A stretch of DNA of 64,000 nt from an uncultured Fusobacterium sp. (GTDB lineage Bacteria; Bacillota; Clostridia; Lachnospirales; Lachnospiraceae). The position numbers and the translations under genes were made by a program. The notes below the pieces were generated by a model. It made no database searches and was not told where the DNA came from. It was given only the letters and a program-made list of their open reading frames with translations. The DNA lies in assembly GCA_963540885.1 (NCBI GenBank), contig CAUTRK010000009.1:26-64025 (forward strand). The letters are read 5' to 3'. This document shows positions 40,328 to 54,408 of this stretch, piece after piece; position 1 is the first letter of the stretch, and every line of letters begins with the position of its first letter.

Positions 40328-40382
40328 TTTCTCCTCTCTTTTAGTCCGGCGTCGTGCGGCAACCGCCCCGGACTCAGGCTCC

Positions 40383-40460
40383 CCCGAGCGGTGGGAGTCG
40401 AACCCACCATGCCGCACTAATGACCGTTGAGTGTTGCGGTGCCGGAACGGGAACGCCCGG
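40383..40460 (-). ncRNA. tRNA-like element B (tRNA 3' half or aberrant tRNA)
   Basis: Perfect T arm GUGGG-UUCGACU-CCCAC plus a 3' acceptor strand CGCUCGG-G. The only complementary 5' strand (CCGGGCG) overlaps element A. There is no D arm. A CCGCA/UGCGG stem encloses an 18-nt loop. Confidence 0.3.
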
Positions 40461-40521
40461 AATTGAACCGGAATCAAAGGTCTTACTCCCTTGCGAAGCT
40501 CTACCGTTGAGCTACATTCCC
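40448..40521 (-). tRNA. tRNA-like gene A with a non-canonical anticodon arm (isotype unassignable)
   Basis: Acceptor GGGAAUG/CGUUCCC, D arm GCUC-AACGGUA-GAGC and T arm UCCGG-UUCAAUU-CCGGG are canonical. The anticodon region folds only as a 6-bp stem CAAGGG/CCUUUG with loop AGUAAGA, which lacks U33. Confidence 0.4.
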
Positions 40522-40649
40522 GTGCGCGGTCCATCCAAAGATCGGTTCAAGCAAGACCGCCTGCGTCGGCTTATCTCCGCTCCTTTCGGTCACGACTTCT
40601 CTTGCCTTTCCTGTGAGCTGTTCTCCGCGCGGTAGTATTTCATTTCTTA

Positions 40650-40723
40650 TCGGGAATCCGGGACTCGAACCCGGGACACGCGGCTTATAAGGCCGCCGCT
40701 CTAACCGCCTGAGCTAATTCCCA
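40650..40723 (-). tRNA. tRNA-Ile (anticodon UAU)
   Basis: Full cloverleaf: acceptor UGGGAAU/AUUCCCG (U1-G72), D stem GCUC/GAGC, anticodon stem GCGGC/GCCGC, loop CUUAUAA, T arm CCGGG-UUCGAGU-CCCGG. No CCA is encoded. Confidence 0.8.
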
Positions 40724-40936
40724 AAATCGCGCCATATCCCCAAAGGCGCGTCCTACTTCTCCGAGTACCTGACTACCGGATTTTCGATTTTCTCGCTCGA
40801 CTGGATTTCAGGGTTCCAGCAGGAGGAGGATTCGTTCTGCCGCACTCCTGCATACTACAGATATCTATAGCATCGGAAATCCGCGCGTTCGGGAAACTGT
40901 AAACCCGTCTGGTTTAGCGAGGGAAGATACCTCGGC

Positions 40937-41083
40937 TGCCGTGGGCAAAGATTTGCACTTTGCATGATAATGTACACTCTCGTTCCTTGTGAGATAGGAT
41001 CTGCTATCCGCAGTTTGCGTTATTCATGCTTCACGCATTCCGCTTTTGCACAAGGACGCGTCTACCTATTCCGCCACCACGGC
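40937..41083 (-). ncRNA. Enlarged tRNA-like RNA, unit 1 (147 nt)
   Basis: 7-bp acceptor GCCGUGG/CCACGGC, a class-II-like D arm UGGCGGAAUAGGUAGACGC, and a T-like arm GCAAAG-UGCAAAU-CUUUGC. An 8-bp stem UCCUUGUG/CACAAGGA carries an insert of about 57 nt. Confidence 0.45.
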
Positions 41084-41169
41084 GCTGCGCCAATGCGTCC
41101 ACGGCACATTTCTGCATGTCCTGCGGGATAAGCGATTGAACAGGCTTTCTTCTTATCCCCTATGCATAT

Positions 41170-41352
41170 TCTGCGGGCAAGGATTTGCACCTTGCATAAA
41201 ATAGGATAGGCGTGTTGTGGACGACGCCTCGTTTTACGTCTTACCCGACCAACTTACCATACTCATCTGGTTGGTTTTGCCCGCGCCGTATCGCTTACAC
41301 CGAGCAAATTCTCCTATTTCTGATTAGCGTCTACCTATTCCGCCACCGCAGC
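41170..41352 (-). ncRNA. Enlarged tRNA-like RNA, unit 2 (183 nt)
   Basis: Acceptor CUGCGG/CCGCAG, the same 21-nt D-arm block as unit 1, and a T-like arm GCAAGG-UGCAAAU-CCUUGC whose base changes are compensatory relative to unit 1. The stem GAAAUAGG/CCUAUUUU encloses about 105 nt. Confidence 0.45.
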
Positions 41353-42042
41353 TATTCATCATTCCGGAAAGTGGAACTTCGTTACGGCTATCGGAAATTC
41401 CTCAATCTCCGACGCCCAACGCGCCGTCCCCGGTCCGTTGCATCTCTCCCAACAAAGCGGGAATCCGCCTATCCCGTCGAACAGGCTTCCCATGGTTGCC
41501 GGTCTCTCATACTGTGCCGATATTCTCCGCAGAAGGTAAAACCAGAACGGAAGCGCTATAGAGTTTCCGAGCGCCTTATACCTGGCGCTGTCCGAACTTT
41601 TGTGCTTCTTTCCCTTACTGTCCGTCCATTCCCCTATATCCGTCCATCCGTCCGGGTATCCCTGCAGGCGTTCCTCTTCCAGCGGGGTATATCTCCGCGC
41701 CACTCCATTTACTCTGCATACATTGTTCAGATTCAGGCTTTCTCCGCCGTTTGGCTTCGCCTGGAGCGTACCGTTAATGTTCGGATTTTCTGTGCCGTTC
41801 CGGCAGTCAACCGCCGTCACAATATAGGTTTTCGAATCTTCCCGGAAATCGAGATTCGCTTTTGCCTTTAGCGTGTGCGAAATCTCCGGCGCGTATATCA
41901 ACACTGCCTGTGTGTCGTGCATCGTGTCCAATGTGTTTGCTATCGGTTCCATGGTGATATTGTTCGTCTGGCCGTTGCCAATGCTGACTGCTTCTTTATG
42001 TTCCATGCTCACCACCTCCGAAATCACGCACGGGATCCGCTG

Positions 42043-42049
42043 CCCCCCC
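42043..42049 (-). repeat. Poly-G(7) tract at the second methyltransferase frameshift
   Basis: G6 would join ..SPTLNTAGG to QRIPCVISEVVSMEHK.. in frame. Confidence 0.7.
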
Positions 42050-42634
42050 GGCGGTATTCAGCGTCGGAGATATGTCATATCCGATCCTCGGCGTTCCGTC
42101 CTGGCTCCGTGGCTCAATAATCATTACTCCGTGCCGGTCCGATGTTGATAATGTCGGGCTTGGGTCTCCCGGCTTCCCGATGCCGAGTCCGTTCCCTGCT
42201 CCGTCTCCGTGTCTTGTCGGTCCGCCGCCCTGAAAGCGTGTTGCCTTGTCGTTTATCAGATACGTCTCTCGATCTTCTCCGAATCGGCAGACGGATTGCA
42301 CATAATTTGCTCTTAAAGCTGCGGACTTTTCTTCTTGAATCAGGATTCCTTTTCCTCCGCCGTCTTTTCCGCTCCGTTCCTGGAAGCTGATTGCCTGATC
42401 AGCACTTCCCGCAGCTTCTCCGGCAGTTCCTTCCCCCGTTTCTCCGCCCGTCGGAGGATACCAGCGCAAGCCCTTTCGCTCAAAGAGTACCTCTCCGGCA
42501 CAGAGTCCTCCAAAATCTGCGACAAGAGCGATCCGTTTTCTTCTCTGGGGCACTCCCCAAAACTGGGCGTCGTGTACTCGCCAAGCAACGGACCATCGGC
42601 CCATCCTGTCGTAAAGAAGCCCGCTTGCTGGCCA

Positions 42635-42643
42635 CCCCCCCCC
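42635..42643 (-). repeat. Poly-G(9) tract at the first methyltransferase frameshift
   Basis: G8 would join ..APTLHVPRGG to WPASGLLYDRMGRWSVAWRVHDAQFWGVPQRR.. in frame. Confidence 0.7.
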
Positions 42644-42982
42644 GAGGCACATGCAAAGTTGGGGCTTCCGGGCAGGCGATCCGGACTGTTTCTTCGAGGA
42701 CTGCCGCGAAGTCTTCCCCTTTGTTGGAGCTGAATGCTCCGGGGACGTTTTCCCAAACCATGAATCGTGGTCGAACATTGAAATCTGTACCGCGTCGTTT
42801 CCTGTCAACATCCCGCATCTCCTTTATTACCCTGATCTGCTCCATGAAAAGCCCCGACCTTGCCCCGGCAAGTCCCGCCCGTTTACCGGCTACGCTCAAA
42901 TCCTGGCACGGGCTGCCGCCTATGATGCAGTCCACCGGCTCGATCTCTGCGCCGTTGATCTTCGTGATATCCCCTAAATGAA

Positions 42983-45187: not shown

Positions 45188-46252
45188 CTACAGGCGCCGC
45201 TCCAGCAGCACATATTCATAGCGCCGCACGATCCGGCTGCGGGCATAGTTCTGTGTGACCTTCCCGTCCCGCGCGAGTGCGGCTATGCTCGAAAGACGTT
45301 TTTCTCTCAGCTGTCTCCAGATACAGCCGGCAATCGCGCTTCCAAGTCCGGGGTGCTCCGGCGCCGCGCCAAGATACAGCAGCACATAAGCCTTTGGTTT
45401 CCGCCTCAGGCAAAGTATACGCAGAAGGTTGCGTGGATCGCCCGTGTGGTACACCCTGTTTCCGTAGTCCGGCACACCGACCAAAAAGCCGACCGCTTCT
45501 CCCTGATAATATGCTATCTTTACCATCTCCATATTCAAAATATGGCGATAGCCGTCAAACAGGGTGCGGAAATCTGCGAGGGAAATCTCCTTGTAGACAG
45601 GAAAATCCCGATAAAGCGACGTAATCAGACCATAGAGCGTCTCAAGCGCGCTGTCAAAGTCCTTCCGCTCAGGGCTCACAATATCGTAGCCCCTCTCCAG
45701 AAAAAGTTCCAAGCGCCGCTCGCACTTTTCTTTGTCCGCAGGAATATCCGCCGGATAGCCGTTGGAGACATAATGCTCCTTTACCCTGTAACCATTCTCC
45801 AGAAAAAGCTCATAGTAATACTCCCTGTTGTAGGGCTCTCCGGTGTAGGGCGTCCGCTCAAAGCCGTTGATCTTCAGACGGTAGCCAAGCCAGAAGGACG
45901 CATTTACCGGTCCGATGACGCTTTCGCAGTTCATTTTTTTCGCAAATCGCCGGACGTTTTCAAAGAGGAAGCGCGCCACCGCCGTGCTGTTCACGCACTC
46001 AAAAAAGCCAAGGTAAGCAAGCGCATCCTCCGGATAACGGACGATACAGAACCTCCCGACCGCTTCCTTCCCGTCATAGATCAAAAATGCCGTGAGCCGG
46101 AAATACCCGCTCAGAGGATGAATCCCCAGAAGAAGCTTCTTCACCTCCTCCGGGCTTTCCATATTGGTGCTTCTGCTGTAAAGCTTCTTCGGCAGTCTCA
46201 GAAAATCCCGAACACGGCGTCTCTCCAGCTCAACGCTCACTGCCCGCAGCAT
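45188..46252 (-). CDS. Two-domain GNAT-fold acyltransferase-like protein
   Basis: 354 aa with ..LGFFECVNSTAVARFLFENVRRFAKKMNCESVIGPVNASFWLGYRL.. and a second ..LYLGAAPEHPGLGSAIA.. segment. Last gene of the operon. Confidence 0.4.
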   Translation of the reverse strand: MLRAVSVELERRRVRDFLRLPKKLYSRSTNMESPEEVKKLLLGIHPLSGYFRLTAFLIYDGKEAVGRFCIVRYPEDALAYLGFFECVNSTAVARFLFENVRRFAKKMNCESVIGPVNASFWLGYRLKINGFERTPYTGEPYNREYYYELFLENGYRVKEHYVSNGYPADIPADKEKCERRLELFLERGYDIVSPERKDFDSALETLYGLITSLYRDFPVYKEISLADFRTLFDGYRHILNMEMVKIAYYQGEAVGFLVGVPDYGNRVYHTGDPRNLLRILCLRRKPKAYVLLYLGAAPEHPGLGSAIAGCIWRQLREKRLSSIAALARDGKVTQNYARSRIVRRYEYVLLERRL

Positions 46253-48554
46253 CGCTTTTCATCACCTCCAGCTCTCCCGTACTCCCGTTCATTCTAATCC
46301 GATCACCATTTCTGATCTTCTCCGTGATACCCTTCACGCCCACGACAGACGGAAGCTTCAGTTCTCTTGAAATAATTGCGGTGTGTGAGAGGAGCGAACC
46401 GCGCTCCGAGACAACGCCCTTCGCCAACATCAGAAGAAATACCCAGCCGGGATCCGTCATTTTTGTGATCAGGATTTTCCCTCTGACATCGCCGGGACGA
46501 TTCACGTCTGTCACGACAAGCGCCTCTCCCTCCGCGATTCCCGCAGCGCAGGGTGTGCCGTACAGACGGTTGTTCTCGCTCCGAAAGAAGCTCTCTGCAT
46601 TCACACTCCGATGAACCTTATCAAACTCCTCCTTTTCAAAAATCAAACGGCTGTAGGCGGGAAGCTTTTCATAGAGCCTCCACCGCTCCTTTTTCACCTC
46701 GATTCTGCCTCTGTATTCCGTGCGCAGCGTCTCACTGCCTGTCAGAGGCGCTTTTCTCTCCGCAAGCGCGAAAACCTCCGCCTCCTCCAGCCAGAAAATC
46801 TCCTCTTTCCCCTCCAAAAGCCCTTCTTCCGCGAAACGCTCTCCCAGCGCAAGAAAAATCCCCCTCACCATGCCGTAAATCCGACTCCGGTTCAATCGCG
46901 CCGTCTCGCGGCTGCGAATCCCCTTCGCGCACTTCTCCGCAAGCAGCGCAGTCAGAAAACCCTCTCCCCGAGGCGCCGTCCGCCGCGCTCCGTGCAGCCT
47001 GGTATGCAACTCCCTCAGACGCTCCGGCGCCGCCGCGTATTCCTCCACCTTCTGCTGCAGCAGCTCCGGATCGCTCCGGAAGGTTCTGCTCTCAAGCTTC
47101 AGCTCCTCCATGCTGCGGTCCCCATATTCCTCCAGATAGCTCTGAAAGGCGCTTCTGTACTCCACGCTTTCCAACGCGCCCCGTCCGCCTCCGTTTTCCA
47201 GCCAGCACAGAGCGAGCGCTGTCAGCGCCTTCAGCGGCCGCAGACTCTCAATATCGGAGATTCCTGAGATGTACCGGTGCAGTTTCTCCTCCGCATCCCC
47301 GTACCTTTTCTGAAGCCGGCGCTTCAGAAGCCCCGTGAAAATAAACGCATAGAGATCGTTCAACAGCGTGACATCCCAGACAGCGAAGAGACGTTCCTGA
47401 AGCAGACGATAGAGGGAGGCGAGCTCTGCCGCGGACATACCGGGGTCAAAGCGTTCCCTGTACAGTGTCTTCACCTCCTTGAAGGCTGCACCCAGCTCCT
47501 CCATGTGCCGCTGCACAGTCAGCAGCTCATATGCCGCGTTAAAATACGTCCCAAGCCGGAGAAGAAGCGGCAGCTTTACCGCGCGGCTGTCGTACTCCCT
47601 GCTTCTCACGCCCATCATCTCCTGCCAGACAGGAATCAGCTTTCGGTTCAGCGGCAGAAATCGGATCGCCGTGTACCAGTTGCTGATCTTGTAGTACATC
47701 CTTCCATTGACGCTGCCAACCATATTCCGGAATGTTTCCTCATGCCTCTGCAGCACCCGCTCATTTTTCAGAACTCTTGCGGAGAGCCCCCGGAAGACAC
47801 CGGCGTACACCTTCTTCACAAAGCTGCAGGTGAGCGGCAGAGAGATACCGGGATAGCTCTCTACAATGTTGCTGTTGTCCATGATCAGCGGTGCGGAAAA
47901 ATCCAGCGTCGTGATTCGGCGCGCCTGAAGAATAAAAACGCTTCCGCCCGCAATGGCAAACTCGATGTCCATGCCCTCTCCCAGCAGCGCGCAGATTCTC
48001 TCCGAGAGAGCGACCAGCTCCTCCACCCTGTCCTTTTCCAGCAGCGCCTCCCGTCCTTCACGGTAATAGACGCGGTCTGTGCGATGATAGTAATAGCTGC
48101 TGGTCTCTGTCGTACCGCTTACGACGCCCTCCCCCGGCCCTCTCCCACAGACAATGACGCTCTCATTCAGAAGCCCCTGCGGATTGGAGCTGAAGATGAC
48201 GCCGGAAAGCTCCGCCGGAACCATTTTCTGGACGATGACATGCATCCTGATTTTCCGTGAACCTTTCTGATAGGCAGCGACCGCCTTTTTCTCAGCCGAA
48301 GCAAAGCACGCCGCAATTTTCTCCTTCAGCGCCGCTCTTCCCACATTCAGAAAAGTATCGAACTGCCCCGCAAAGCTCTGCTCCGCACCGTCCTCCACGT
48401 CGGCGGAGGAACGGACAGCCGAATACTCCCATGGAAACACCGTCTTCCATTGCTCCGGTGTATTTCTCTGTTCATTCGGGATAACGCGAAACTCCGGCAC
48501 CGGAAATCCGTTTTCCAACAGCAGTGTGAGATTTTCCGCTTTTTTCCCTGTCAT
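46230..48554 (-). CDS. PEP-utilising dikinase-like protein (PPDK-N ATP-grasp plus swivel phosphohistidine domain)
   Basis: N-terminal GKKAENL...SSADVEDGAEQSFAGQFDTFLNV and C-terminal ..ILITKMTDPGWVFLL..AKGVVSERGSLLSHTAIISRELKLPSVVG. An alternative upstream start lies at 48626. Confidence 0.75.
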   Translation of the reverse strand: MTGKKAENLTLLLENGFPVPEFRVIPNEQRNTPEQWKTVFPWEYSAVRSSADVEDGAEQSFAGQFDTFLNVGRAALKEKIAACFASAEKKAVAAYQKGSRKIRMHVIVQKMVPAELSGVIFSSNPQGLLNESVIVCGRGPGEGVVSGTTETSSYYYHRTDRVYYREGREALLEKDRVEELVALSERICALLGEGMDIEFAIAGGSVFILQARRITTLDFSAPLIMDNSNIVESYPGISLPLTCSFVKKVYAGVFRGLSARVLKNERVLQRHEETFRNMVGSVNGRMYYKISNWYTAIRFLPLNRKLIPVWQEMMGVRSREYDSRAVKLPLLLRLGTYFNAAYELLTVQRHMEELGAAFKEVKTLYRERFDPGMSAAELASLYRLLQERLFAVWDVTLLNDLYAFIFTGLLKRRLQKRYGDAEEKLHRYISGISDIESLRPLKALTALALCWLENGGGRGALESVEYRSAFQSYLEEYGDRSMEELKLESRTFRSDPELLQQKVEEYAAAPERLRELHTRLHGARRTAPRGEGFLTALLAEKCAKGIRSRETARLNRSRIYGMVRGIFLALGERFAEEGLLEGKEEIFWLEEAEVFALAERKAPLTGSETLRTEYRGRIEVKKERWRLYEKLPAYSRLIFEKEEFDKVHRSVNAESFFRSENNRLYGTPCAAGIAEGEALVVTDVNRPGDVRGKILITKMTDPGWVFLLMLAKGVVSERGSLLSHTAIISRELKLPSVVGVKGITEKIRNGDRIRMNGSTGELEVMKSDAAGSER

Positions 48555-48667
48555 ATCCTCTCCCCGATGCTCCGGAGCCTCCGAAGCCTCTGACGCTGCC
48601 GACCACACTCCGGCTCCGCCGCCCATCCCTCCGCGGGAGGGCAGTCTCCTTTTTGCGGCGCTCTTAT

Positions 48668-50562: not shown

Positions 50563-51219
50563 TCATCCGCACAGCGCGGGGATCCCAATCCAGTAAAACA
50601 GAAGAAGCCCAACAAACAAAAGCCCGAACAGCAAATACGCTGCGCCCGACGGCTTCCTGACGGGAATATCCAGAATCTCAAGGACGCCGATAGCAGGAAG
50701 CGCCCAGCCGTAGAAAACTGCGAACTGCGCAGCTGTCAGCCTCCACAGAAGGGCGTAGAGGAGAGGCAGCAGCAGCGCTGTATAGGTGACCGGAAGCCCG
50801 CGATAAAAGTGGAGCGGTTCTCCGTCCATCTCCCCGACAAGAATATGAAAGTACGCGAGCCGCGCAATGCCGCAGACTGCAAAGAAAATCAGCAGGAGCA
50901 AACGATACCATGTCATCGCGCCGAGGGACAGCGCGATCACAGCAGGAAAGGCGACAAAGCTGACCGCATCCGCCAACGAGTCCAGTTCTGTCCCAAAGTG
51001 TTTTTCTTCTTCACTTCGCCTGCAGCGTCTCGCCACAGGTCCGTCCGCAAGATCGAAGACCCCTGCAAAAGCGAGGCAGCTCATTGCTGCGCGGAGGCGG
51101 AACGCCGGGAGCTCCGCCCCCGGAAGCCCTCCTGCCGCGAAGCCCATGCCAAGAATCGACGCAGCGACACCCGCGTAGGTCAGAACGACAGATCGGTTCC
51201 ATTTTCCAACTATTTTCAT
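50563..51219 (-). CDS. pssA: CDP-alcohol phosphatidyltransferase (phosphatidylserine synthase-like)
   Basis: DLADGPVARRCRRSEEEKHFGTELDSLADAVSF matches DGx2ARx8Gx3Dx3D. Confidence 0.8.
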   Translation of the reverse strand: MKIVGKWNRSVVLTYAGVAASILGMGFAAGGLPGAELPAFRLRAAMSCLAFAGVFDLADGPVARRCRRSEEEKHFGTELDSLADAVSFVAFPAVIALSLGAMTWYRLLLLIFFAVCGIARLAYFHILVGEMDGEPLHFYRGLPVTYTALLLPLLYALLWRLTAAQFAVFYGWALPAIGVLEILDIPVRKPSGAAYLLFGLLFVGLLLFYWIGIPALCG

Positions 51220-53765
51220 CTTTTCTCCGCGCGCGTCACGATTCCGCTCCCGCCATCGACTGTGACACGCTCCCCGTCCCTGATTTTTTTCATGGCGTCA
51301 TGGCAGCTGACAACTGCGGGGATGCCGTACTCCCGCGCTACGATCGCCGCGTGACAGAGTATCCCGCCGTACTCCGTGACAATGCCGGAGAGCACCGCAA
51401 ACTTCGGCGTCCAGCCGGTATCTGTGAACCTCGTCACCAGAATATCTCCCGCCTTCAATCTGTCAATTTCGGAAAAATCCCCGATGACGCGTGCCGTCCC
51501 CGTGACCACGCCGCTGTTCGCACCGAGCCCCCGAATACCCTTCGCCTCAGTCTCTCCTTTTTTCTCCTGTGCCCCTTCAAACGCCGGCCCTATCTCATTT
51601 TCACTCATGTAATTGCGGTAGGAATTGTAATATCTCCGGTTTTTTTCGATGATCCTCCGCAGCGCTTCCGCATCAAGCCGTCCATCCTGATATGCCCAGA
51701 GCTGCCTGATCTTCAAAAACCATATTTCATCGGCCTCCCGCAGAACCCCCTGTGCCACCAGAAGCTTCGCGTATTCGAGCGTATACATACGGATAATGCA
51801 GTAAAATCTGGTGGAGATATCGCGGAACTCCTCGCGCCACCAGAGCATCTCCCGCATTTCAAGCAGCTTTTTCTTCAGCGCCTCAAAACGGCTCGCCGTC
51901 ATCCTTCCTCTGATACTCTCAAGGAGCGCTGCATAGCGCTTTTTGCCCTCCGCCTGATCTCTTTCGGGGCTGTATTCATCCGAAAGCACCGCCATATCCC
52001 GCACCCCCGTGACCAGGGGCGTTATATCCTCAAAATAGTTCGGATACGCCACGTCCAGCTCATGGTCGGAGTGATAGCCGAAGCGCTCTTTCAGCTCCCT
52101 GACCTCATCAAAGAAGCGCCCGTCAGTCGCTGCACCCGCCTCCGGCTCCCCGTCCTCCTCTCCCCTGAGCTCGGAGACAATCTGCCGCGGCTCCGTGTCC
52201 CTCCAGTAAGCAAACGCCTCCGGCAGCCGCCGGATTTTTCGGGAGAGCTTCCACATCGCATAAAAGGGCAGGAGATGCGAAATGTTTTCGATGCTGCTGA
52301 GCAGTGTCAGATACTCGCTTTCCGACACATATTTCAGGAGCGCTTCCTTGTAAAGCGACTGATGCACAGTATTGATGAATATCTGCCAGAAGTAAGTGCT
52401 CTCGCTCCGGAGATAATCATCTTCCGTCAGCTTCCGCCAGGTCTTCGCGATATCTCCCGCCTGTCCTGAGCGCAGCGCGGAGAGATAGCCTTCGTAGACA
52501 TGCAGCAGTTCTTCTCTGTAGCGCTCCACGTTCCGCTTCCGCTCCCTCACAATGCGCTTCTGCGCGAGCGCCATCCGGATAATATGGAGGAGGGAAAGGA
52601 AGGAGAGCTTTGTCACCTGTCCGTCTCCCTCGTACATCATCCGGATGCCGTACTCCGAATCAAACTCCCGCTCCCTGTAGCCGATGATTTTGCTCATGGC
52701 AAGCTTCACGACAGACAAATTCCAGTAGCATCTCGCATAGAACATCTCTCCTAACTTCCGGAGCTCCCTTTCCTTCAGTATTTTAGCATCCAGAAGGAAC
52801 TTTTTCAGCGCGTACTCCCAAATATATTCGTAGAGACTCCACATATACGGATAACAGACCGCAGCGGACACGCCGCCGTCCTTAAAATCTGCCGTGCTCC
52901 AGAGATCGCGAAGCCCCGCGTAGTTCAGCCGGGTAATCTGCCTCGCCTGAAGGATCGCAAGCGCCCCACCCGCAAGCGCAAACTCGATGTCGCAGGGATA
53001 GCCGAACAGCAGCTGAATTTTCAGAAATTCCTCTCCCAGCGCCTCTATCCTCTCCCTGTCAAGCGCCGACGCGCCGTCCTCCGCCCTGCCGCTGCCCTCA
53101 TACCAGTCGTAGGAATACCGCTCCGGCTTTACTCTTCCTCCTACCAGCGCATCTCCCATGCCGGGCGCAAGTTCAATCAGCATGCTTTTGTCACAGCCTG
53201 TGATCGGATTCACCGTGAAGCAGATGCCACTGTACTCCGCCGGAACCATCTCCTGTATGACCACCGCCATGGCATAGCCCGTAAAATCTATTTTCCGATA
53301 AACAAGATAGTTCAGGATCGTCTCGCCGAACATGGACTGATAGCAGCGGACCACCTGCGCGGCGATCGCTTCCATGTCGCGTATATGCAGGAACGTGTCG
53401 TACTGTCCCGCAAAGGAGTACGCCTCCATATCCTCCTTCATCCCGCTGCTTCTGACGGCGTAGGCTTTCTCTCTGTCCAGCCGGCGTGAGAGCGTTTTCC
53501 ACGTCTCATCTGAAAGCGTCCGCCCCTCAAACAGCGCTCGCAGCTCCTTTCCGCGCTCCCGCACGTTCCGCCCGGAGAGACCGGAGAGCAGCGCATCAAT
53601 CCTGTCTTCGATTCCATTCTCCCGGACAAAGCGGAAATATTCTTCCCGGTCCAGAATCACGCCGCCGGGAACCGGAAGGCCCTCTCCCTTCATCCGGCAG
53701 AGAAAAGCGCCCTTATTGCCGAGAATTTCCGCCTCGCGGCAGCTTCCGTCAAGCTCTCTTATCAT
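51216..53765 (-). CDS. PEP-utilising dikinase-like protein, second paralog
   Basis: N-terminal GNKGAFL...VRSSGMKEDMEAYSFAGQYDTFLHI and C-terminal ..ILVTRFTDTGWTPKF..LSGIVTEYGGILCHAAIVAREYGIPAVV. Start MIRELDG at 53765 (RBS gggag). Confidence 0.75.
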   Translation of the reverse strand: MIRELDGSCREAEILGNKGAFLCRMKGEGLPVPGGVILDREEYFRFVRENGIEDRIDALLSGLSGRNVRERGKELRALFEGRTLSDETWKTLSRRLDREKAYAVRSSGMKEDMEAYSFAGQYDTFLHIRDMEAIAAQVVRCYQSMFGETILNYLVYRKIDFTGYAMAVVIQEMVPAEYSGICFTVNPITGCDKSMLIELAPGMGDALVGGRVKPERYSYDWYEGSGRAEDGASALDRERIEALGEEFLKIQLLFGYPCDIEFALAGGALAILQARQITRLNYAGLRDLWSTADFKDGGVSAAVCYPYMWSLYEYIWEYALKKFLLDAKILKERELRKLGEMFYARCYWNLSVVKLAMSKIIGYREREFDSEYGIRMMYEGDGQVTKLSFLSLLHIIRMALAQKRIVRERKRNVERYREELLHVYEGYLSALRSGQAGDIAKTWRKLTEDDYLRSESTYFWQIFINTVHQSLYKEALLKYVSESEYLTLLSSIENISHLLPFYAMWKLSRKIRRLPEAFAYWRDTEPRQIVSELRGEEDGEPEAGAATDGRFFDEVRELKERFGYHSDHELDVAYPNYFEDITPLVTGVRDMAVLSDEYSPERDQAEGKKRYAALLESIRGRMTASRFEALKKKLLEMREMLWWREEFRDISTRFYCIIRMYTLEYAKLLVAQGVLREADEIWFLKIRQLWAYQDGRLDAEALRRIIEKNRRYYNSYRNYMSENEIGPAFEGAQEKKGETEAKGIRGLGANSGVVTGTARVIGDFSEIDRLKAGDILVTRFTDTGWTPKFAVLSGIVTEYGGILCHAAIVAREYGIPAVVSCHDAMKKIRDGERVTVDGGSGIVTRAEKR

Positions 53766-53820
53766 CGCTCCGCTCCCTTCATCGCCTTCCCTGTCGGCAC
53801 AGCCTTTCTCACCCAGGCGC

Positions 53821-54408
53821 TCAGAACATGTTCCGGCGCACCCCAAGAGCATACAGGAGCATATTGAAAACAATATGCGTCAGTGCGCCGAGCATCACGT
53901 ACAGAATATACATCCCTGCCGAGAGCGGATAAAACAGACAGAGCACAAGCACGCAGCCGAAGACCGAATCCGCCTGATCCAGAAAAATAAAAAAGCCTCT
54001 CAAAAATCCGTCCGGCGCTTTTCCCGGTGCAATGCCAAGCCGCCGCTTCATAAAGCTGTTCGGCAATTCAAACAGTGCGTAGGCAAGTCCCTCCAGAATT
54101 CCGATCCGCAGATTGAACAGAGCGCTGTTCTCATGGAGGGCATAAAAAAGATTCCTCGCCGAGAGTGCCTGGCTTTTACACACCCGCCCCCACAGAACAC
54201 CAAGGGCGGCATTGAACACGATATAGCCGAAAAAGCCTTTCCAGGTCTTATGCTCGCCGAAGATCCGTCTTCCATCCCTGAGCGTCCTCCCGCCGTCCAT
54301 CGGCAGCCTCAGGCTGTCAATCAGCCCTGACTTGCAGAATGCCGAAGTGGCGACGCCTGCAAGAATCGCCGGCATCAGGCTGATATACAATGAAATAATT
54401 GCGTCCAA
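53821..54408 (-). CDS. CDP-archaeol synthase-like (CarS/DUF46) membrane protein
   Basis: GEHKTWKGFFG, ..NSFMKRRLGI.. and ..FLDQADS.. match the CarS signature motifs. Confidence 0.6.
   Translation of the reverse strand: MDAIISLYISLMPAILAGVATSAFCKSGLIDSLRLPMDGGRTLRDGRRIFGEHKTWKGFFGYIVFNAALGVLWGRVCKSQALSARNLFYALHENSALFNLRIGILEGLAYALFELPNSFMKRRLGIAPGKAPDGFLRGFFIFLDQADSVFGCVLVLCLFYPLSAGMYILYVMLGALTHIVFNMLLYALGVRRNMF

What the first reader, a model, noticed from the sequence alone, without database searches (positions are those of the whole stretch)
40937..41352. Two enlarged tRNA-like scaffolds with covarying acceptor and T stems and different internal cargo
Read on the minus strand, both units start with an acceptor strand followed by the same 21-nt class-II-type D-arm block (GGUGGCGGAAUAGGUAGACGC; plus-strand copies at 41058-41078 and 41326-41346). 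Both end with a 6-bp T-like hairpin, a CC dinucleotide and the complementary acceptor strand. The variable parts covary. The acceptor is GCCGUGG/CCACGGC in unit 1 and CUGCGG/CCGCAG in unit 2. The T stem is GCAAAG/CUUUGC in unit 1 and GCAAGG/CCUUGC in unit 2 (A-U changed to G-C), with an identical loop UGCAAAU. Between the D and T arms each unit has a long 8-bp stem carrying unrelated inserts of about 57 and 105 nt. In unit 1 the stem and loop start (UCCUU-GUGCAA...) would give a canonical U33-GCA-A37 anticodon loop if the ~55-nt insert were removed after position 37. Unit 2 starts 7 nt after the methyltransferase stop codon. I know of no bacterial or phage RNA class with this architecture. Possibilities are tRNAs with novel intervening sequences, tRNA-scaffolded small RNAs released by RNase P/Z, or domains of a larger RNA.
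Basis: seen in the sequence. Interest (0 to 1): 0.75.

Follow-up and report, generated by a model that had tools for sequence, protein, structure and literature searches.

The report
Phage tRNA-shaped RNAs carrying structured cargo
A prophage in this window encodes two RNAs that have the acceptor, D and T arms of a leucine tRNA but carry a folded 'cargo' domain where the anticodon arm should be. They belong to large phage RNA families that are unannotated and absent from Rfam, and their function is unknown.

Summary
On the minus strand, unit 2 (41352-41170) and unit 1 (41083-40937) share a 21-nt D arm that matches tRNA-Leu, a 6-bp T hairpin and a complementary acceptor stem. Neither has an anticodon arm. 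Neither is a decoding tRNA or an intron-containing tRNA.

Unit 2 belongs to a widespread phage RNA family (more than 120 IMG/VR contigs, hosts from at least 9 phyla, E. coli P22-like prophages, Listeria phage B025). Its helix P1 leads to an invariant three-way junction (..GA / UAAAACGA / GGCGU-loop-ACGCC / UA). The cargo arm is exchangeable and is sometimes a whole tRNA. A covarying pseudoknot joins the cargo to the P3 loop.

Unit 1 belongs to a Firmicutes-phage superfamily with the same scaffold and many different cargos.

Acceptor, D, P1 and T stems covary strongly (0 of 500 shuffles reach the observed score). G-U pairs greatly outnumber A-C, so these are RNAs made from this strand. Rfam 15, GenBank/RefSeq annotation and literature searches give no name for them.

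Best reading: these are stable, non-decoding tRNA mimics cut out by tRNA-processing enzymes, and the cargo is the effector. The effector's function is unknown; a decoy, a ligand binder or a ribozyme are all possible.

The parts
41170..41352 (-). Unit 2: complete tRNA-like scaffolded RNA gene (183 nt including position 72). Member of the widespread phage three-way-junction family, cargo type A.
41346..41352 (-). Unit 2 acceptor 5' strand GCUGCGG.
   Evidence: Pairs with 41170-41176 (6 Watson-Crick pairs plus G1-A72). All 7 acceptor positions show changes on both sides in 43 relatives.
41327..41343 (-). Unit 2 D arm GCGGAAUAGGUAGACGC (tRNA-Leu type).
   Evidence: D-stem pairs covary.
41320..41326 (-). 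Unit 2 linker UAAUCAG. The AAUC in it is invariant. It replaces the anticodon arm and is present only when the module sits in a tRNA-like scaffold.
41312..41319 (-). Unit 2 P1 5' strand AAAUAGGA, followed by the junction GA (41311-41310).
   Evidence: Pairs with 41199-41206. 7 of 8 P1 pairs covary.
41237..41309 (-). Unit 2 cargo arm (type A). It contains hairpin P2a (41308-41276, with a GCGA tetraloop) and hairpin P2b (41274-41249, loop AGAUGAGUAUGGUAA).
   Evidence: Alifold with covariation. Same cargo in Klebsiella phage phi1_146050 and 60+ IMG/VR contigs.
41284..41287 (-). Unit 2 pseudoknot strand GGCG, in the P2a internal loop.
   Evidence: Pairs with the first 4 nt of the P3 loop, CGUC (41223-41220). 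60 of 65 relatives pair 4/4, with combinations GGUG:CACC, GAUG:CAUC, GACG:CGUC, GAAG:CUUC.
41207..41236 (-). Unit 2 invariant junction core: J23 UAAAACGA (41236-41229), P3 hairpin GGCGU-CGUCCACAAC-ACGCC (41228-41209), J31 UA (41208-41207).
   Evidence: Anchor of the family. P3 covaries in relatives found through an independent anchor (GGCGC/GCGCC, GGGCG/CGCCC).
41199..41206 (-). Unit 2 P1 3' strand UCCUAUUU.
41177..41195 (-). Unit 2 T arm GCAAGG-UGCAAAU-CCUUGC.
41170..41176 (-). Unit 2 acceptor 3' strand CCGCAGA.
40937..41083 (-). Unit 1: complete tRNA-like scaffolded RNA gene (147 nt including discriminator A40937). Member of the Firmicutes-phage scaffold superfamily. Close relatives are L129, L244 and L245.
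41077..41083 (-). Unit 1 acceptor 5' strand GCCGUGG.
   Evidence: Pairs 7/7 with 40938-40944.
41058..41074 (-). Unit 1 D arm, identical to that of unit 2.
40984..41056 (-). Unit 1 long stem UCCUUGUG (41056-41049) / CACAAGGA (40991-40984), enclosing a 57-nt cargo (41048-40992) that folds as a small three-way junction.
   Evidence: stem and inner hairpins covary among the 4 relatives.
40964..40983 (-). Unit 1 'variable region' ACGAGAGUGUACAUUAUCAU. CGAGAGUGUACAUNAUCAU is invariant in the four relatives.
40945..40963 (-). Unit 1 T arm GCAAAG-UGCAAAU-CUUUGC.
40938..40944 (-). Unit 1 acceptor 3' strand CCACGGC.
40447..40724 (-). Two tRNA genes on the same strand downstream: Ile-UAU at 40649-40724 and an atypical 'Leu-UAA' at 40447-40522. 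They are the likely co-transcribed tRNA cluster.

Best explanation
Units 1 and 2 are genes for two non-decoding, tRNA-shaped stable RNAs of a myovirus-like prophage.

What they are built from. Each uses the acceptor stem, D arm and T arm of a class-II tRNA (tRNA-Leu type). This is shown by sequence and covariation. The anticodon arm is missing or reduced to a short linker, and a long helix in the variable-arm position carries a structured cargo.

How they are probably made (inferred). They are transcribed with the neighbouring tRNA genes. RNase P cuts the 5' end, the tRNA 3'-end enzymes trim the 3' end, and CCA may be added. The L-shaped scaffold therefore gives the cargo defined ends and stability, as tmRNA does naturally and as engineered 'tRNA scaffolds' do.

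Unit 2's cargo (shown). It is a member of a widespread phage module. Helices P1, P2 and P3 meet at an almost invariant three-way junction (GA / (U)AAAACGA / GGCG..CGCC / UA). The P3 loop forms a covarying pseudoknot with the exchangeable P2 domain. The module also exists without the scaffold and in permuted form inside tRNA arrays.

What the cargo does (inferred, weak). The compact junction acts in trans on something universal in bacteria. It could be a decoy or sponge for a conserved host or defence factor, or a binder of a small ligand. It is an accessory phage function rather than an essential one.
For: Structure
- Two exact copies each of the D-arm and T-arm blocks.
- The D arm matches tRNA-Leu at 22 of 23 bases.
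- Covariation of acceptor, D, P1 and T stems in 43 relatives.
- Covariation of acceptor and T stems in 78 scaffolds not selected for pairing. The acceptor is 7/7 paired in 74 of 88, against 1.9% with shuffled partners.
- The strand is RNA-like: G-U 47 versus A-C 5 and 30 versus 4.

Not a tRNA
- ARAGORN and the Rfam tRNA model are silent on both units.

Family
- 27 species genomes from at least 9 phyla carry the core.
- 119 of 5426 E. coli genomes carry one, between Q and the holin.
- Members occur in Listeria B025 and Klebsiella phi1_146050.

Modularity
- There are several conserved cargo types. Some are real tRNAs.
- Permuted forms are flanked by tRNAs. Scaffold-less forms exist.

Pseudoknots
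- Cargo A: 60 of 65 units pair 4/4, with compensating combinations.
- Cargo B: CUGG:CCAG, CGGG:CCCG, CCGG:CCGG.

Processing signals
- U at -1 in 31 of 49; discriminator A in 28 of 49; 'CC' after the discriminator in 14 of 49.
- 36 of 92 and 21 of 113 units have a tRNA within 500 nt, always on the same strand.

Accessory nature
- The family is patchy among related prophages.
- No protein family is shared by the neighbourhoods of more than 18 of about 120 loci.

Late expression in CUS-3
- A PR'-like promoter (11 of 12 matches) and a hairpin with a U6 tract precede the unit.
Against: - There are no expression or end-mapping data, so processing by RNase P/Z is inferred only from shape and end signals.
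- The Firmicutes scaffold has 7+6 = 13 stacked base pairs and G in place of U55 in the T loop. It departs from a canonical RNase P/TruB substrate.
- Unit 2 has a G1-A72 mismatch.
- The discriminator is not conserved, and CCA is mostly not encoded.
- Nothing here identifies the target of the cargo. No significant antisense complementarity to the rest of the window was found.
- An invariant junction, tolerance of circular permutation and a nearby twister ribozyme in one locus fit a self-cleaving ribozyme as well as a binder.
- In this window the units lie in the DNA-metabolism module, not at the head of the late operon as in CUS-3 and B025. Timing of expression is therefore not uniform.
- The family could already be among the 10,006 unnamed candidate phage RNAs of PMC10690425, whose alignments I could not read.
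Confidence: 0.6

Rival explanations
1. The junction core of unit 2 (and perhaps unit 1's cargo) is a new self-cleaving ribozyme or a small-molecule aptamer. The tRNA-like scaffold or flanking tRNAs only supply the context. The RNA acts by cutting itself or its transcript, or by binding a metabolite or second messenger.
For: - The junction nucleotides are nearly invariant across phages of at least 9 host phyla, while all helices vary.
- The fold is compact and pseudoknotted.
- Natural circular permutation exists: ends in P1 or in P2. From background knowledge this is typical of hammerhead and twister ribozymes.
- The context is phage and tRNA islands, where small ribozymes are common. A twister-P5 lies 1.3 kb from the L010 unit.
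Against: - There is no match to any Rfam ribozyme or riboswitch, even at E<=10.
- No cleavage site can be named.
- Embedding in a stabilising tRNA scaffold fits a long-lived trans-acting RNA better than a self-destroying one.
- A cis-acting riboswitch would not tolerate permutation or trans release.
Confidence: 0.2
2. They are aminoacylatable tRNA mimics that work like tmRNA or another charged tRNA-like RNA. LeuRS, which does not read the anticodon, would charge them with leucine, and they would act on ribosomes or in aminoacyl-transfer reactions.
For: - The topology is the same as tmRNA: 5' acceptor strand, D region, long helix, cargo, helix, T arm, 3' acceptor strand.
- The D arm is tRNA-Leu type.
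- A is the commonest discriminator (28 of 49 and 56 of 88).
- From background knowledge, bacterial LeuRS identity rests on A73 and D/T tertiary elements.
Against: - ARAGORN finds no tmRNA and Rfam finds no tmRNA match.
- There is no G3-U70 pair. Position 3:70 is UA, GC, AU or CG and never GU.
- The discriminator varies among A, U, C and G.
- Proteobacterial members have a completely different D arm and T loop (GCUGAU pairing with AUCAGC).
- The module works without any acceptor stem in scaffold-less and permuted members.
- The T loop has G55, and the acceptor/T stack is 13 bp.
Confidence: 0.07
3. They are genuine decoding tRNAs interrupted by a new kind of intron. Unit 1 would be tRNA-Cys(GCA) with a ~56-nt intron after position 37/38.
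For: - With introns allowed and the score threshold lowered to 80%, ARAGORN reports unit 1 as tRNA-Cys(gca) with a 56-nt intron and unit 2 as tRNA-Asp(atc) with a 106-nt intron.
- Unit 1 has UCCUU-GUGCAAA...AAGGA.
Against: - ARAGORN reports nothing at default thresholds, even with introns allowed.
- The three close relatives would have anticodon AUA (GUAUAAA).
- The 'loop' bases are paired, and the pairs are kept through change (G-C to A-U).
- A class-II body with a 20-nt invariant variable region does not fit tRNA-Cys.
- Most superfamily members have no 5-bp anticodon stem after the D arm.
- From background knowledge, bacterial tRNA introns are group I introns of about 200 nt or more, and Rfam finds no Intron_gpI here.
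Confidence: 0.04
4. They are not functional RNAs. They would be decayed tRNA-Leu pseudogenes with insertions, DNA-level sites (attP-like or recombination sites), or terminators for the opposite strand.
For: - The reverse complement of J23+P3 scores as a terminator-like hairpin followed by CGUUUUAC in both the window and CUS-3.
- Truncated copies of unit ends lie just upstream of units in the window (41105-41095) and in L245.
- L. plantarum phages share identical scaffold ends around different middles, which hints at recombination.
Against: - Compensatory changes occur in five helices and two pseudoknots.
- G-U pairs greatly outnumber A-C on the sense strand. This argues against a DNA-level or opposite-strand function.
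- The junction is conserved across phyla.
- The opposite-strand U tract is only 4 U long.
Confidence: 0.04

Closest known systems
tmRNA (SsrA)
   Same: The topology is identical: a tRNA-like domain formed by the two ends (acceptor plus T arm, reduced D region), with a long helix in place of the anticodon arm leading to a large pseudoknotted insert. tmRNA is made by tRNA-processing enzymes.
   Different: There is no sequence or model match (ARAGORN and Rfam). There is no G3-U70 alanine identity pair. No tag reading frame was looked for. The units have a full tRNA-Leu-type D arm. The insert is 57-155 nt with an invariant three-way junction. The family is phage-borne and patchy rather than universal.
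Bacterial Y RNAs of the YrlA type (PMC4201824)
   Same: A non-coding RNA in which one module closely mimics tRNA (D and T arms, tertiary pairs) and a second module does something else. YrlA is found in bacteria and some phages, and at least one is an RNase P substrate.
   Different: YrlA is permuted relative to these units: T arm, then a closed 'acceptor' stem-loop, then D arm, with the ends in the Ro60-binding stem. It carries the GNCGAAN0-1G motif and lies within about 4 kb of a Ro60 gene. None of this holds here.
GOLLD and ROOL RNAs (Rfam RF01998, RF03087 from memory; PMC12286853)
   Same: Structured RNAs of unknown function encoded by phages and prophages, often beside tRNA islands. GOLLD sometimes carries tRNAs inside a variable region, as unit-2-type RNAs do in their P2 arm.
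   Different: GOLLD and ROOL are 500-800+ nt and have unrelated sequence and structure. Rfam finds no hit here. They have no tRNA-like scaffold of their own.
Phage T4 stable RNAs species 1 and 2 (rnaC, rnaD)
   Same: Small stable RNAs of unknown function inside a phage tRNA gene cluster. rnaC ends in a canonical T arm and acceptor-like 3' end.
   Different: The shared motifs are absent: no UAAAACGAGG junction, no tRNA-Leu D arm, no UGCAAAU loop. Homology is not detectable.
Engineered 'tRNA scaffolds' for recombinant RNA, and the tRNA-linked small RNAs (TMERs) of murine gammaherpesvirus 68 (both from background knowledge)
   Same: A tRNA body gives a passenger RNA correct processing and nuclease resistance. 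In the engineered version the passenger replaces the anticodon stem-loop, as here.
   Different: One is artificial and the other is eukaryotic, with the passenger lying 3' of the tRNA. Neither has a conserved junction module.

Membership tests
tRNA (Rfam RF00005 / ARAGORN) | Cloverleaf with a 5-bp anticodon stem and a 7-nt loop, detectable by tRNA models. | tested here: not met
   No call over 40937-41352 by ARAGORN or by Rfam at gathering threshold or E<=10. The only calls are sub-threshold, with an allowed 56- or 106-nt 'intron'.
tRNA (Rfam RF00005 / ARAGORN) | Acceptor stem, D arm and T arm with elbow-forming loops. | tested here: met
   7-bp acceptor, tRNA-Leu D arm with GG, T hairpin with U54...A58-type loop. 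Covariation.
Intron-containing bacterial tRNA (group I intron in the anticodon loop) | A group I intron core (about 200 nt or more, P3-P9) interrupting a normal anticodon loop. | tested here: not met
   The inserts are 57 and 105 nt. Rfam finds no Intron_gpI. Homologues give an implausible anticodon and keep the 'loop' paired.
tmRNA | Detection by tmRNA models. | tested here: not met
   ARAGORN -m finds none, even at a relaxed threshold. Rfam tmRNA families find none.
tmRNA | G3-U70 alanine identity pair. | tested here: not met
   Unit 1 has C3-G70 and unit 2 has U3-A70. Across 43 relatives, position 3:70 is UA, GC, AU or CG and never GU.
tmRNA | tRNA-like domain formed by the 5' and 3' ends, with a large insert between the D region and the T arm. 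| tested here: met
tmRNA | Internal tag-peptide reading frame with a resume codon; SmpB dependence. | not tested
   The cargos are 57-105 nt of conserved helices. No reading-frame analysis was done, and SmpB binding is not testable here.
YrlA / bacterial Y RNA | Order T arm, closed acceptor-like stem-loop, D arm, with the RNA ends in a Ro60-binding stem (PMC4201824). | tested here: not met
   The order here is acceptor 5' strand, D arm, cargo, T arm, acceptor 3' strand, with the ends in the acceptor stem.
YrlA / bacterial Y RNA | GNCGAAN0-1G motif near the 5' end. | tested here: not met
   By inspection of both unit sequences, no G-N-C-G-A-A occurs. The nearest is GCGGAA.
YrlA / bacterial Y RNA | Encoded within about 4 kb of a Ro60 (TROVE) gene on the same strand. 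| tested here: not met
   Pfam on the 10 flanking ORFs (35.6-46.3 kb) gives DNA methylases, SLT, dUTPase and SSB, and no TROVE. Small ORFs were not all scanned.
GOLLD / ROOL | Match to the Rfam covariance models. | tested here: not met
   No hit in the window or in 14 related loci.
GOLLD / ROOL | Phage or prophage location next to tRNA islands, with tRNAs sometimes embedded. | tested here: met
   The family description is from PMC12286853.
Unit-2 family (tRNA-scaffolded three-way-junction RNA; defined here) | [U/G]AAUCR linker, P1, GA, cargo, (U)AAAACGA, GGCGN-loop-NCGCC, UA, P1', inside acceptor/D/T scaffold. | tested here: met
   Unit 2 has every element and aligns with 43 relatives. It also has the cargo-A pseudoknot GGCG:CGUC.
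Firmicutes-phage tRNA-Leu-like scaffold superfamily (defined here) | 7-bp acceptor, UG, GCGGAAUAGGUAGACGC-type D arm, ..AUCAU, 6-bp T stem, loop UGCAAAU, directly followed by the acceptor 3' strand. | tested here: met
   Units 1 and 2 both fit.

The most novel reading that the evidence does not exclude
The invariant, pseudoknotted three-way junction carried by unit 2 is the active centre of an undescribed class of phage RNA: a new small ribozyme, or an RNA decoy or sponge aimed at a universally conserved host or defence component. This module can stand alone, be circularly permuted inside tRNA arrays, host a tRNA, or be plugged into a tRNA body. Under this reading, phages have evolved a general 'tRNA-scaffold expression system' that delivers many different structured RNA payloads, unit 1's among them.
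Probability: 0.35. Interest if true: 0.9.

Novelty: new variant of a known kind. Interest (0 to 1): 0.72.

Why it matters
- If the reading holds, phages of many bacterial phyla carry a modular family of stable RNAs that has gone unannotated. This includes well-studied genomes: E. coli P22-like prophages such as CUS-3, between Q and the holin, and Listeria phage B025.
- It would be a natural counterpart of the engineered tRNA scaffold, and a third kind of structured RNA linked to phage tRNA islands, beside GOLLD and ROOL.
- The junction is conserved at the sequence level from Bacillota phages to Pseudomonadota phages. That points to a universal target or to intrinsic chemistry, and either would be new biology.
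- Practically, these loci are a source of false or missed tRNA calls, and of compact scaffolded RNA folds for structural and synthetic biology.
- E. coli and Listeria hosts with cultured phages make the question directly testable.

Tried and rejected
- Known RNA families: Rfam 15 at gathering threshold on the window and on 14 loci, and at E<=10 on three short stretches. It found only ordinary tRNAs, SRP RNA, the mcrA motif and a twister-P5 nearby.
- YrlA: I read the defining paper. Topology, motif and Ro60 linkage all fail.
- T4 rnaC/rnaD: fetched and read. No shared motifs.
- Antisense-regulator idea (c4/CI-like): I searched the window for complements of both units. Only chance-level 11-12-mers turned up.
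- Conserved protein partner: all-against-all clustering of 3215 flanking ORFs from about 120 loci. No family is shared by more than 18 loci, and the top clusters are the lysis genes of near-identical E. coli prophages. One locus has RtcB downstream; I did not pursue it.
- Intron-tRNA reading: tested with ARAGORN intron mode and with homologues, and rejected.
- UAAUCAG as an anticodon or specifier-like element: AAUC is invariant, but the linker is absent from scaffold-less members. It therefore belongs to the scaffold junction, not to the core.
- Direct MAFFT alignment of whole units misaligned the 5' ends. I replaced it with fixed-register extracts.
- Literature: four concept searches and one search for the literal sequence motifs found no description. 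The supplements of the 10,006-candidate phage RNA survey were not available.
Full report
**1. The observation.**
Read on the minus strand, the interval contains two units.
- Unit 2 runs from 41352 to 41170, starting 7 nt after the TGA of a C5-methylase ORF.
- Unit 1 runs from 41083 to 40937.
- The 21-nt block GGUGGCGGAAUAGGUAGACGC and the T hairpin GCAARGUGCAAAUCYUUGCCC each occur exactly twice in the 64-kb window, with none in shuffles.
- The block matches annotated E. coli tRNA-Leu genes at 22 of 23 positions, so 'class-II D arm' is correct.
- Acceptor stems (GCCGUGG/CCACGGC; CUGCGG/CCGCAG), T stems (one A-U to G-C swap), the identical loop UGCAAAU and the two 8-bp stems enclosing 57 and 105 nt are as described.
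- Minor corrections: one copy of the block is at 41327-41347; the 'CC' is part of the acceptor 3' strand; as a 7-bp stem, unit 2's acceptor has a G1-A72 mismatch.
- MFE folds recover the acceptor closing stem and the long stem in both units, and the T hairpin in unit 2, with modest z-scores of -2.2 and -2.1.

**2. Not ordinary tRNAs.**
- ARAGORN and Rfam find only two tRNAs downstream on the same strand: Ile-UAU at 40649-40724 and an atypical Leu-UAA at 40447-40522.
- They find nothing over the units, even at E<=10.
- Run locally, ARAGORN calls the units as intron-containing tRNAs only when introns up to 250 nt are allowed and the threshold is dropped to 80%. It then gives unit 1 as Cys-GCA with a 56-nt intron and unit 2 as Asp-AUC with a 106-nt intron.

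**3. Unit 2 has many relatives.**
- blastn against cultured phages hit Listeria phage B025 and Klebsiella phage phi1_146050 inside unit 2.
- B025 has the whole architecture, with a different acceptor (AUACUCG/CGAGUAU) and a different P1 (AUAUAAGA/UCUUAUAU).
- Parsing these loci gives a common plan, in this order:
  1. acceptor 5' strand (7 nt)
  2. D-like hairpin
  3. linker [U/G]AAUCR
  4. P1 5' strand
  5. GA
  6. a variable arm P2 of 57-155 nt
  7. UAAAACGA
  8. hairpin P3 (GGCGU..ACGCC)
  9. UA(U)
  10. P1 3' strand
  11. 2-4 nt
  12. T-like hairpin
  13. acceptor 3' strand
- Proteobacterial members use a different D arm (GCGC-AGGCUGAU-GCGC). Its loop is complementary to their T loop (AGAUCAGCA), so the tRNA 'elbow' is kept by Watson-Crick pairing.
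- The P2 arm falls into several conserved types. Unit 2 has type A, with CCGGUGUAGCGAUACGGNGCGGG and AGAUGAGUAUGG.
- In some members the P2 arm is a complete tRNA, as called by ARAGORN or the Rfam tRNA model in L027, L056, L041 and L121.

**4. Covariation in the unit-2 family.**
- I cut out loops and cargo so that 43 distinct members align in fixed register.
- The five-helix structure is 98% paired against 69% in shuffles. The covariation score is 0.725 against 0.163, reached by 0 of 500 shuffles. Structures slid by 1-3 columns pair at 31-42%.
- All 7 acceptor pairs, 4 D pairs, 7 of 8 P1 pairs and 5 T pairs show changes on both sides.
- These members had been chosen for a perfect acceptor and T stem, so the percentage paired is partly by construction. 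P1 and D were not so chosen.
- G-U pairs (30) far outnumber A-C (4), which places the RNA on this strand.
- P3 was invariant only because it was the search anchor. Re-sampling through the cargo-A motif GGTGTAGCGATACGNNGCGG shows P3 variants that keep pairing: GGCGC/GCGCC, and AGGCG../..CGCCU becoming GGGCG../..CGCCC.
- The same re-sampling reduces the truly constant part to (U/G)(A)AAACGA, GGCG..CGCC and UA.

**5. A pseudoknot, and autonomy of the module.**
- P3 loop sequences track the cargo type.
- For cargo A, the four bases G-N-N-G in GAUAC-GNNG-CGG pair with the first four bases of the P3 loop in 60 of 65 distinct units. The remaining five pair 3/4.
- The combinations are GGUG:CACC/CAUC, GGCG:CGUC, GAUG:CAUC, GACG:CGUC and GAAG:CUUC.
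- On the 17 distinct combinations, 94% of cells pair against 85% in shuffles (0 of 500 reach it), and slid controls pair at 28-38% for -3 to +1.
- In the window this pseudoknot is 41287-41284 with 41223-41220.
- Cargo B has an equivalent contact: CUGG:CCAG, CGGG:CCCG, CCGG:CCGG.
- The same junction plus cargo A also occurs on a plain long hairpin stem, with no acceptor, D or T arms and no AAUCAG linker (L273, L276, L277, L278, L287, L314, L315).
- In the tRNA arrays of large phages the module is circularly permuted. P1 is capped by a small D-like pseudoknotted hairpin plus UAAUCAG, and the RNA ends lie in P2 between flanking tRNAs (L007, L043, L069, L113).
- The three-way junction with its P3-cargo pseudoknot is therefore the conserved functional unit. 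The tRNA body is one of several ways of presenting it.

**6. Unit 1 and the Firmicutes scaffold superfamily.**
- I fixed positions by the D-arm and T-loop motifs only, with no selection for pairing.
- The 7 nt before the D arm then pair 7/7 with the 7 nt after the T stem in 74 of 88 distinct units, against 1.9% with shuffled partners. There are 62 different acceptor sequences, and G-U 47 against A-C 5.
- The counting tool gives 97% paired against 68%, and a score of 0.80 against 0.20, reached by 0 of 500 shuffles.
- Units are 81-233 nt long with very diverse middles.
- The usual plan is: D arm, about 10-nt linker (UA.....UAA), a GAU... stem, cargo, an ...AUC stem, AU, T arm.
- This reads best as a class-II tRNA whose anticodon arm has shrunk to a linker and whose variable arm has been expanded. 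That is my inference.
- Firmicutes unit-2-type RNAs are one branch of this superfamily (UAAUCA-GAUAUAAGA...UCUUAUAUC-AU).
- Unit 1 has three close relatives, found through its invariant 3' segment CGAGAGUGUACAUNAUCAU (L129, L244, L245).
- Their consensus fold keeps the acceptor, D stem, the 8-bp stem, two inner hairpins and the T arm. 19 of 38 pairs show compensatory change.
This argues against an intron-containing tRNA-Cys.
- L. plantarum phages carry identical scaffold ends around different cargos. L041 carries a unit-1-like and a unit-2-like gene in tandem, as the window does.

**7. Context.**
- The window holds a myovirus-like prophage, all on the minus strand. It encodes large terminase, portal, major head protein, sheath, tape measure and tail fibres between 23.7 kb and 0.3 kb.
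- The units lie in the DNA-metabolism module, after a C5 methylase and before the tRNAs, an N6/N4 methylase, dUTPase and SSB.
- An SRP RNA at 62.6 kb marks host DNA.
- Elsewhere the family sits where phages keep tRNAs and morons.
- In 119 of 5426 complete E. coli genomes, and in phages CUS-3, IME10 and Huey, a unit lies between the Q antiterminator and the holin. It is unannotated or labelled 'boundary sequence'.
- In CUS-3 it follows a PR'-like promoter (11 of 12 matches) and a hairpin with a U6 tract. By inference it would be made only under Q antitermination.
- In B025 it lies between gp63 and gp64 near the right end of the genome. gp65, downstream, looks like an HNH endonuclease by inspection of its sequence. 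An Rfam mcrA motif follows about 90 nt downstream.
- A canonical tRNA lies within 500 nt of 36 of 92 unit-2-type units and 21 of 113 Firmicutes-type units, always on the same strand.
- Only 27 of 185,579 species genomes carry the exact core. They span Pseudomonadota, Bacillota, Bacteroidota, Chloroflexota, Deinococcota, Acidobacteriota, Planctomycetota and Patescibacteria bins. The distribution is phage-borne, sparse and very broad.
- No neighbouring protein family is shared across the loci.

**8. How it most likely works.**
- Shown: the RNAs fold as L-shaped tRNA mimics without an anticodon arm, and unit 2 carries a conserved pseudoknotted junction module.
- Inferred: biogenesis by the tRNA-processing machinery.
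  - U at -1 in 31 of 49 units.
  - 'CC' after the discriminator in 14 of 49.
  - Co-orientation with tRNAs.
  - Permuted forms whose ends would be defined by processing of the flanking tRNAs.
- Weakly inferred: an accessory, trans-acting role of the junction on a universal target. This rests on its patchy distribution, the cross-phylum sequence constancy and the lack of a linked protein.
- I cannot distinguish a binder or decoy from a ribozyme or aptamer. No antisense target was found in the window.

**9. Comparison with what is known.**
- tmRNA is the closest in topology, but the model match and the G3-U70 pair fail.
- YrlA Y RNAs are the closest in concept (tRNA mimic plus second module), but they are permuted, carry GNCGAAN0-1G and sit next to Ro60. 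None of these holds here.
- GOLLD and ROOL are the closest in context: phage RNAs at tRNA islands, with tRNAs sometimes embedded. They are unrelated in size and sequence.
- T4 rnaC and rnaD share only the setting.
- Literature searches by concept and by literal sequence found no description.
- The family may lie unnamed among the candidate RNAs of PMC10690425.

**10. Verdict.**
The two units are members of large, covariation-supported, unannotated phage RNA families built on a tRNA body.
- The intron-tRNA reading is rejected, and the scaffolded-RNA reading is favoured.
- I class it as a new variant of a known kind (tRNA-mimic chimeric RNAs).
- There is a substantial chance that the junction module is a new functional RNA class.

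Noticed in passing
window 40447-40522 (-): The tRNA that ARAGORN calls Leu(taa) has a class-I body and an over-long anticodon arm. Rfam aligns 21 nt where 18 are expected. The best fold is a 6-bp stem CAAGGG/CCUUUG with loop AGUAAGA, so G rather than U precedes the anticodon. It is not a normal tRNA-Leu.
   Followed up: partly
window ~40370-40440 (-): Directly after that tRNA lies a tRNA-like remnant. It has a canonical T arm GGUGGGUUCGACUCCCACC preceded by stem CCGCA/UGCGG with an 18-nt loop, and no recognisable 5' acceptor or D arm. Rfam gives only a chance-level Tymo_tRNA-like hit.
   Followed up: no
window 41095-41105 and 41121-41127 (-); L245 upstream of its unit: The spacer between the units contains GCCGUGG-ACGC. 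This is unit 1's acceptor 5' strand fused to the end of the D arm, i.e. a deletion copy, 11 nt upstream of the real start. It also repeats CCCGCAG from unit 2's 3' end. L245 has an analogous fused fragment, GCGGUGGCGG-GCCGCAGA. These may be scars of recombination between scaffold halves.
   Followed up: partly
window 41125-41160 (-): An 8-bp hairpin GGGAUAAG...CUUAUCCC lies in the spacer right after unit 2. It has no U tract, and its role is unknown.
   Followed up: no
window 41359-42811 (-): The C5 cytosine methylase is split into two overlapping ORFs, 41996-42811 and 41359-42027. Each matches a different part of Pfam DNA_methylase. This could be a frameshift, a pseudogene or a sequencing error.
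   Followed up: no
window 41209-41236 (+ strand view); L123 3170-3187: The reverse complement of the invariant J23+P3 element scores as a terminator-like hairpin followed by CGUUUUAC, both in the window and in CUS-3. It is probably incidental, but it could act as a weak terminator for antisense transcription.
   Followed up: partly
L041 5318-5567: A unit-2-type RNA has a tRNA in its P2 arm (Rfam tRNA 33 bits, 109 nt). That tRNA carries its own expanded anticodon arm, so the architecture is nested.
   Followed up: partly
L001 (Listeria phage B025) 1657-1707; L010 11480-11534: An Rfam mcrA RNA motif lies about 90 nt downstream of the B025 unit. A twister-P5 ribozyme lies 1.3 kb from the L010 unit.
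   Followed up: no
L230 2462-2605: A member of the Firmicutes superfamily has a perfect internal tandem duplication of its cargo (GCGUAAGAUAAUUCCAUUACAACGCAGUUGGGUAGAUUAUC, twice).
   Followed up: no
window 46233-48626 and 51219-53873 (-): Two large ORFs of 798 and 885 aa match the same PHROG 'kinase' family (phrog_18609) through their C-termini.
   Followed up: no
window 40964-40983 vs 41046-41051 (-): In unit 1 the invariant UGUAC of the variable region can pair with GUGCA (GUAUA in the relatives). These are the same bases that form the top of the 8-bp stem, so two mutually exclusive pairings both survive the sequence change. This suggests a possible pseudoknot or switch.
   Followed up: partly
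One IMG/VR locus of the unit-2 family (downstream ORF listed): The first ORF downstream of one unit-2-type RNA looks like an RtcB RNA ligase, judged by inspection of its sequence. This recalls the Rsr-Y RNA-RtcB operons. It was seen only once.
   Followed up: no
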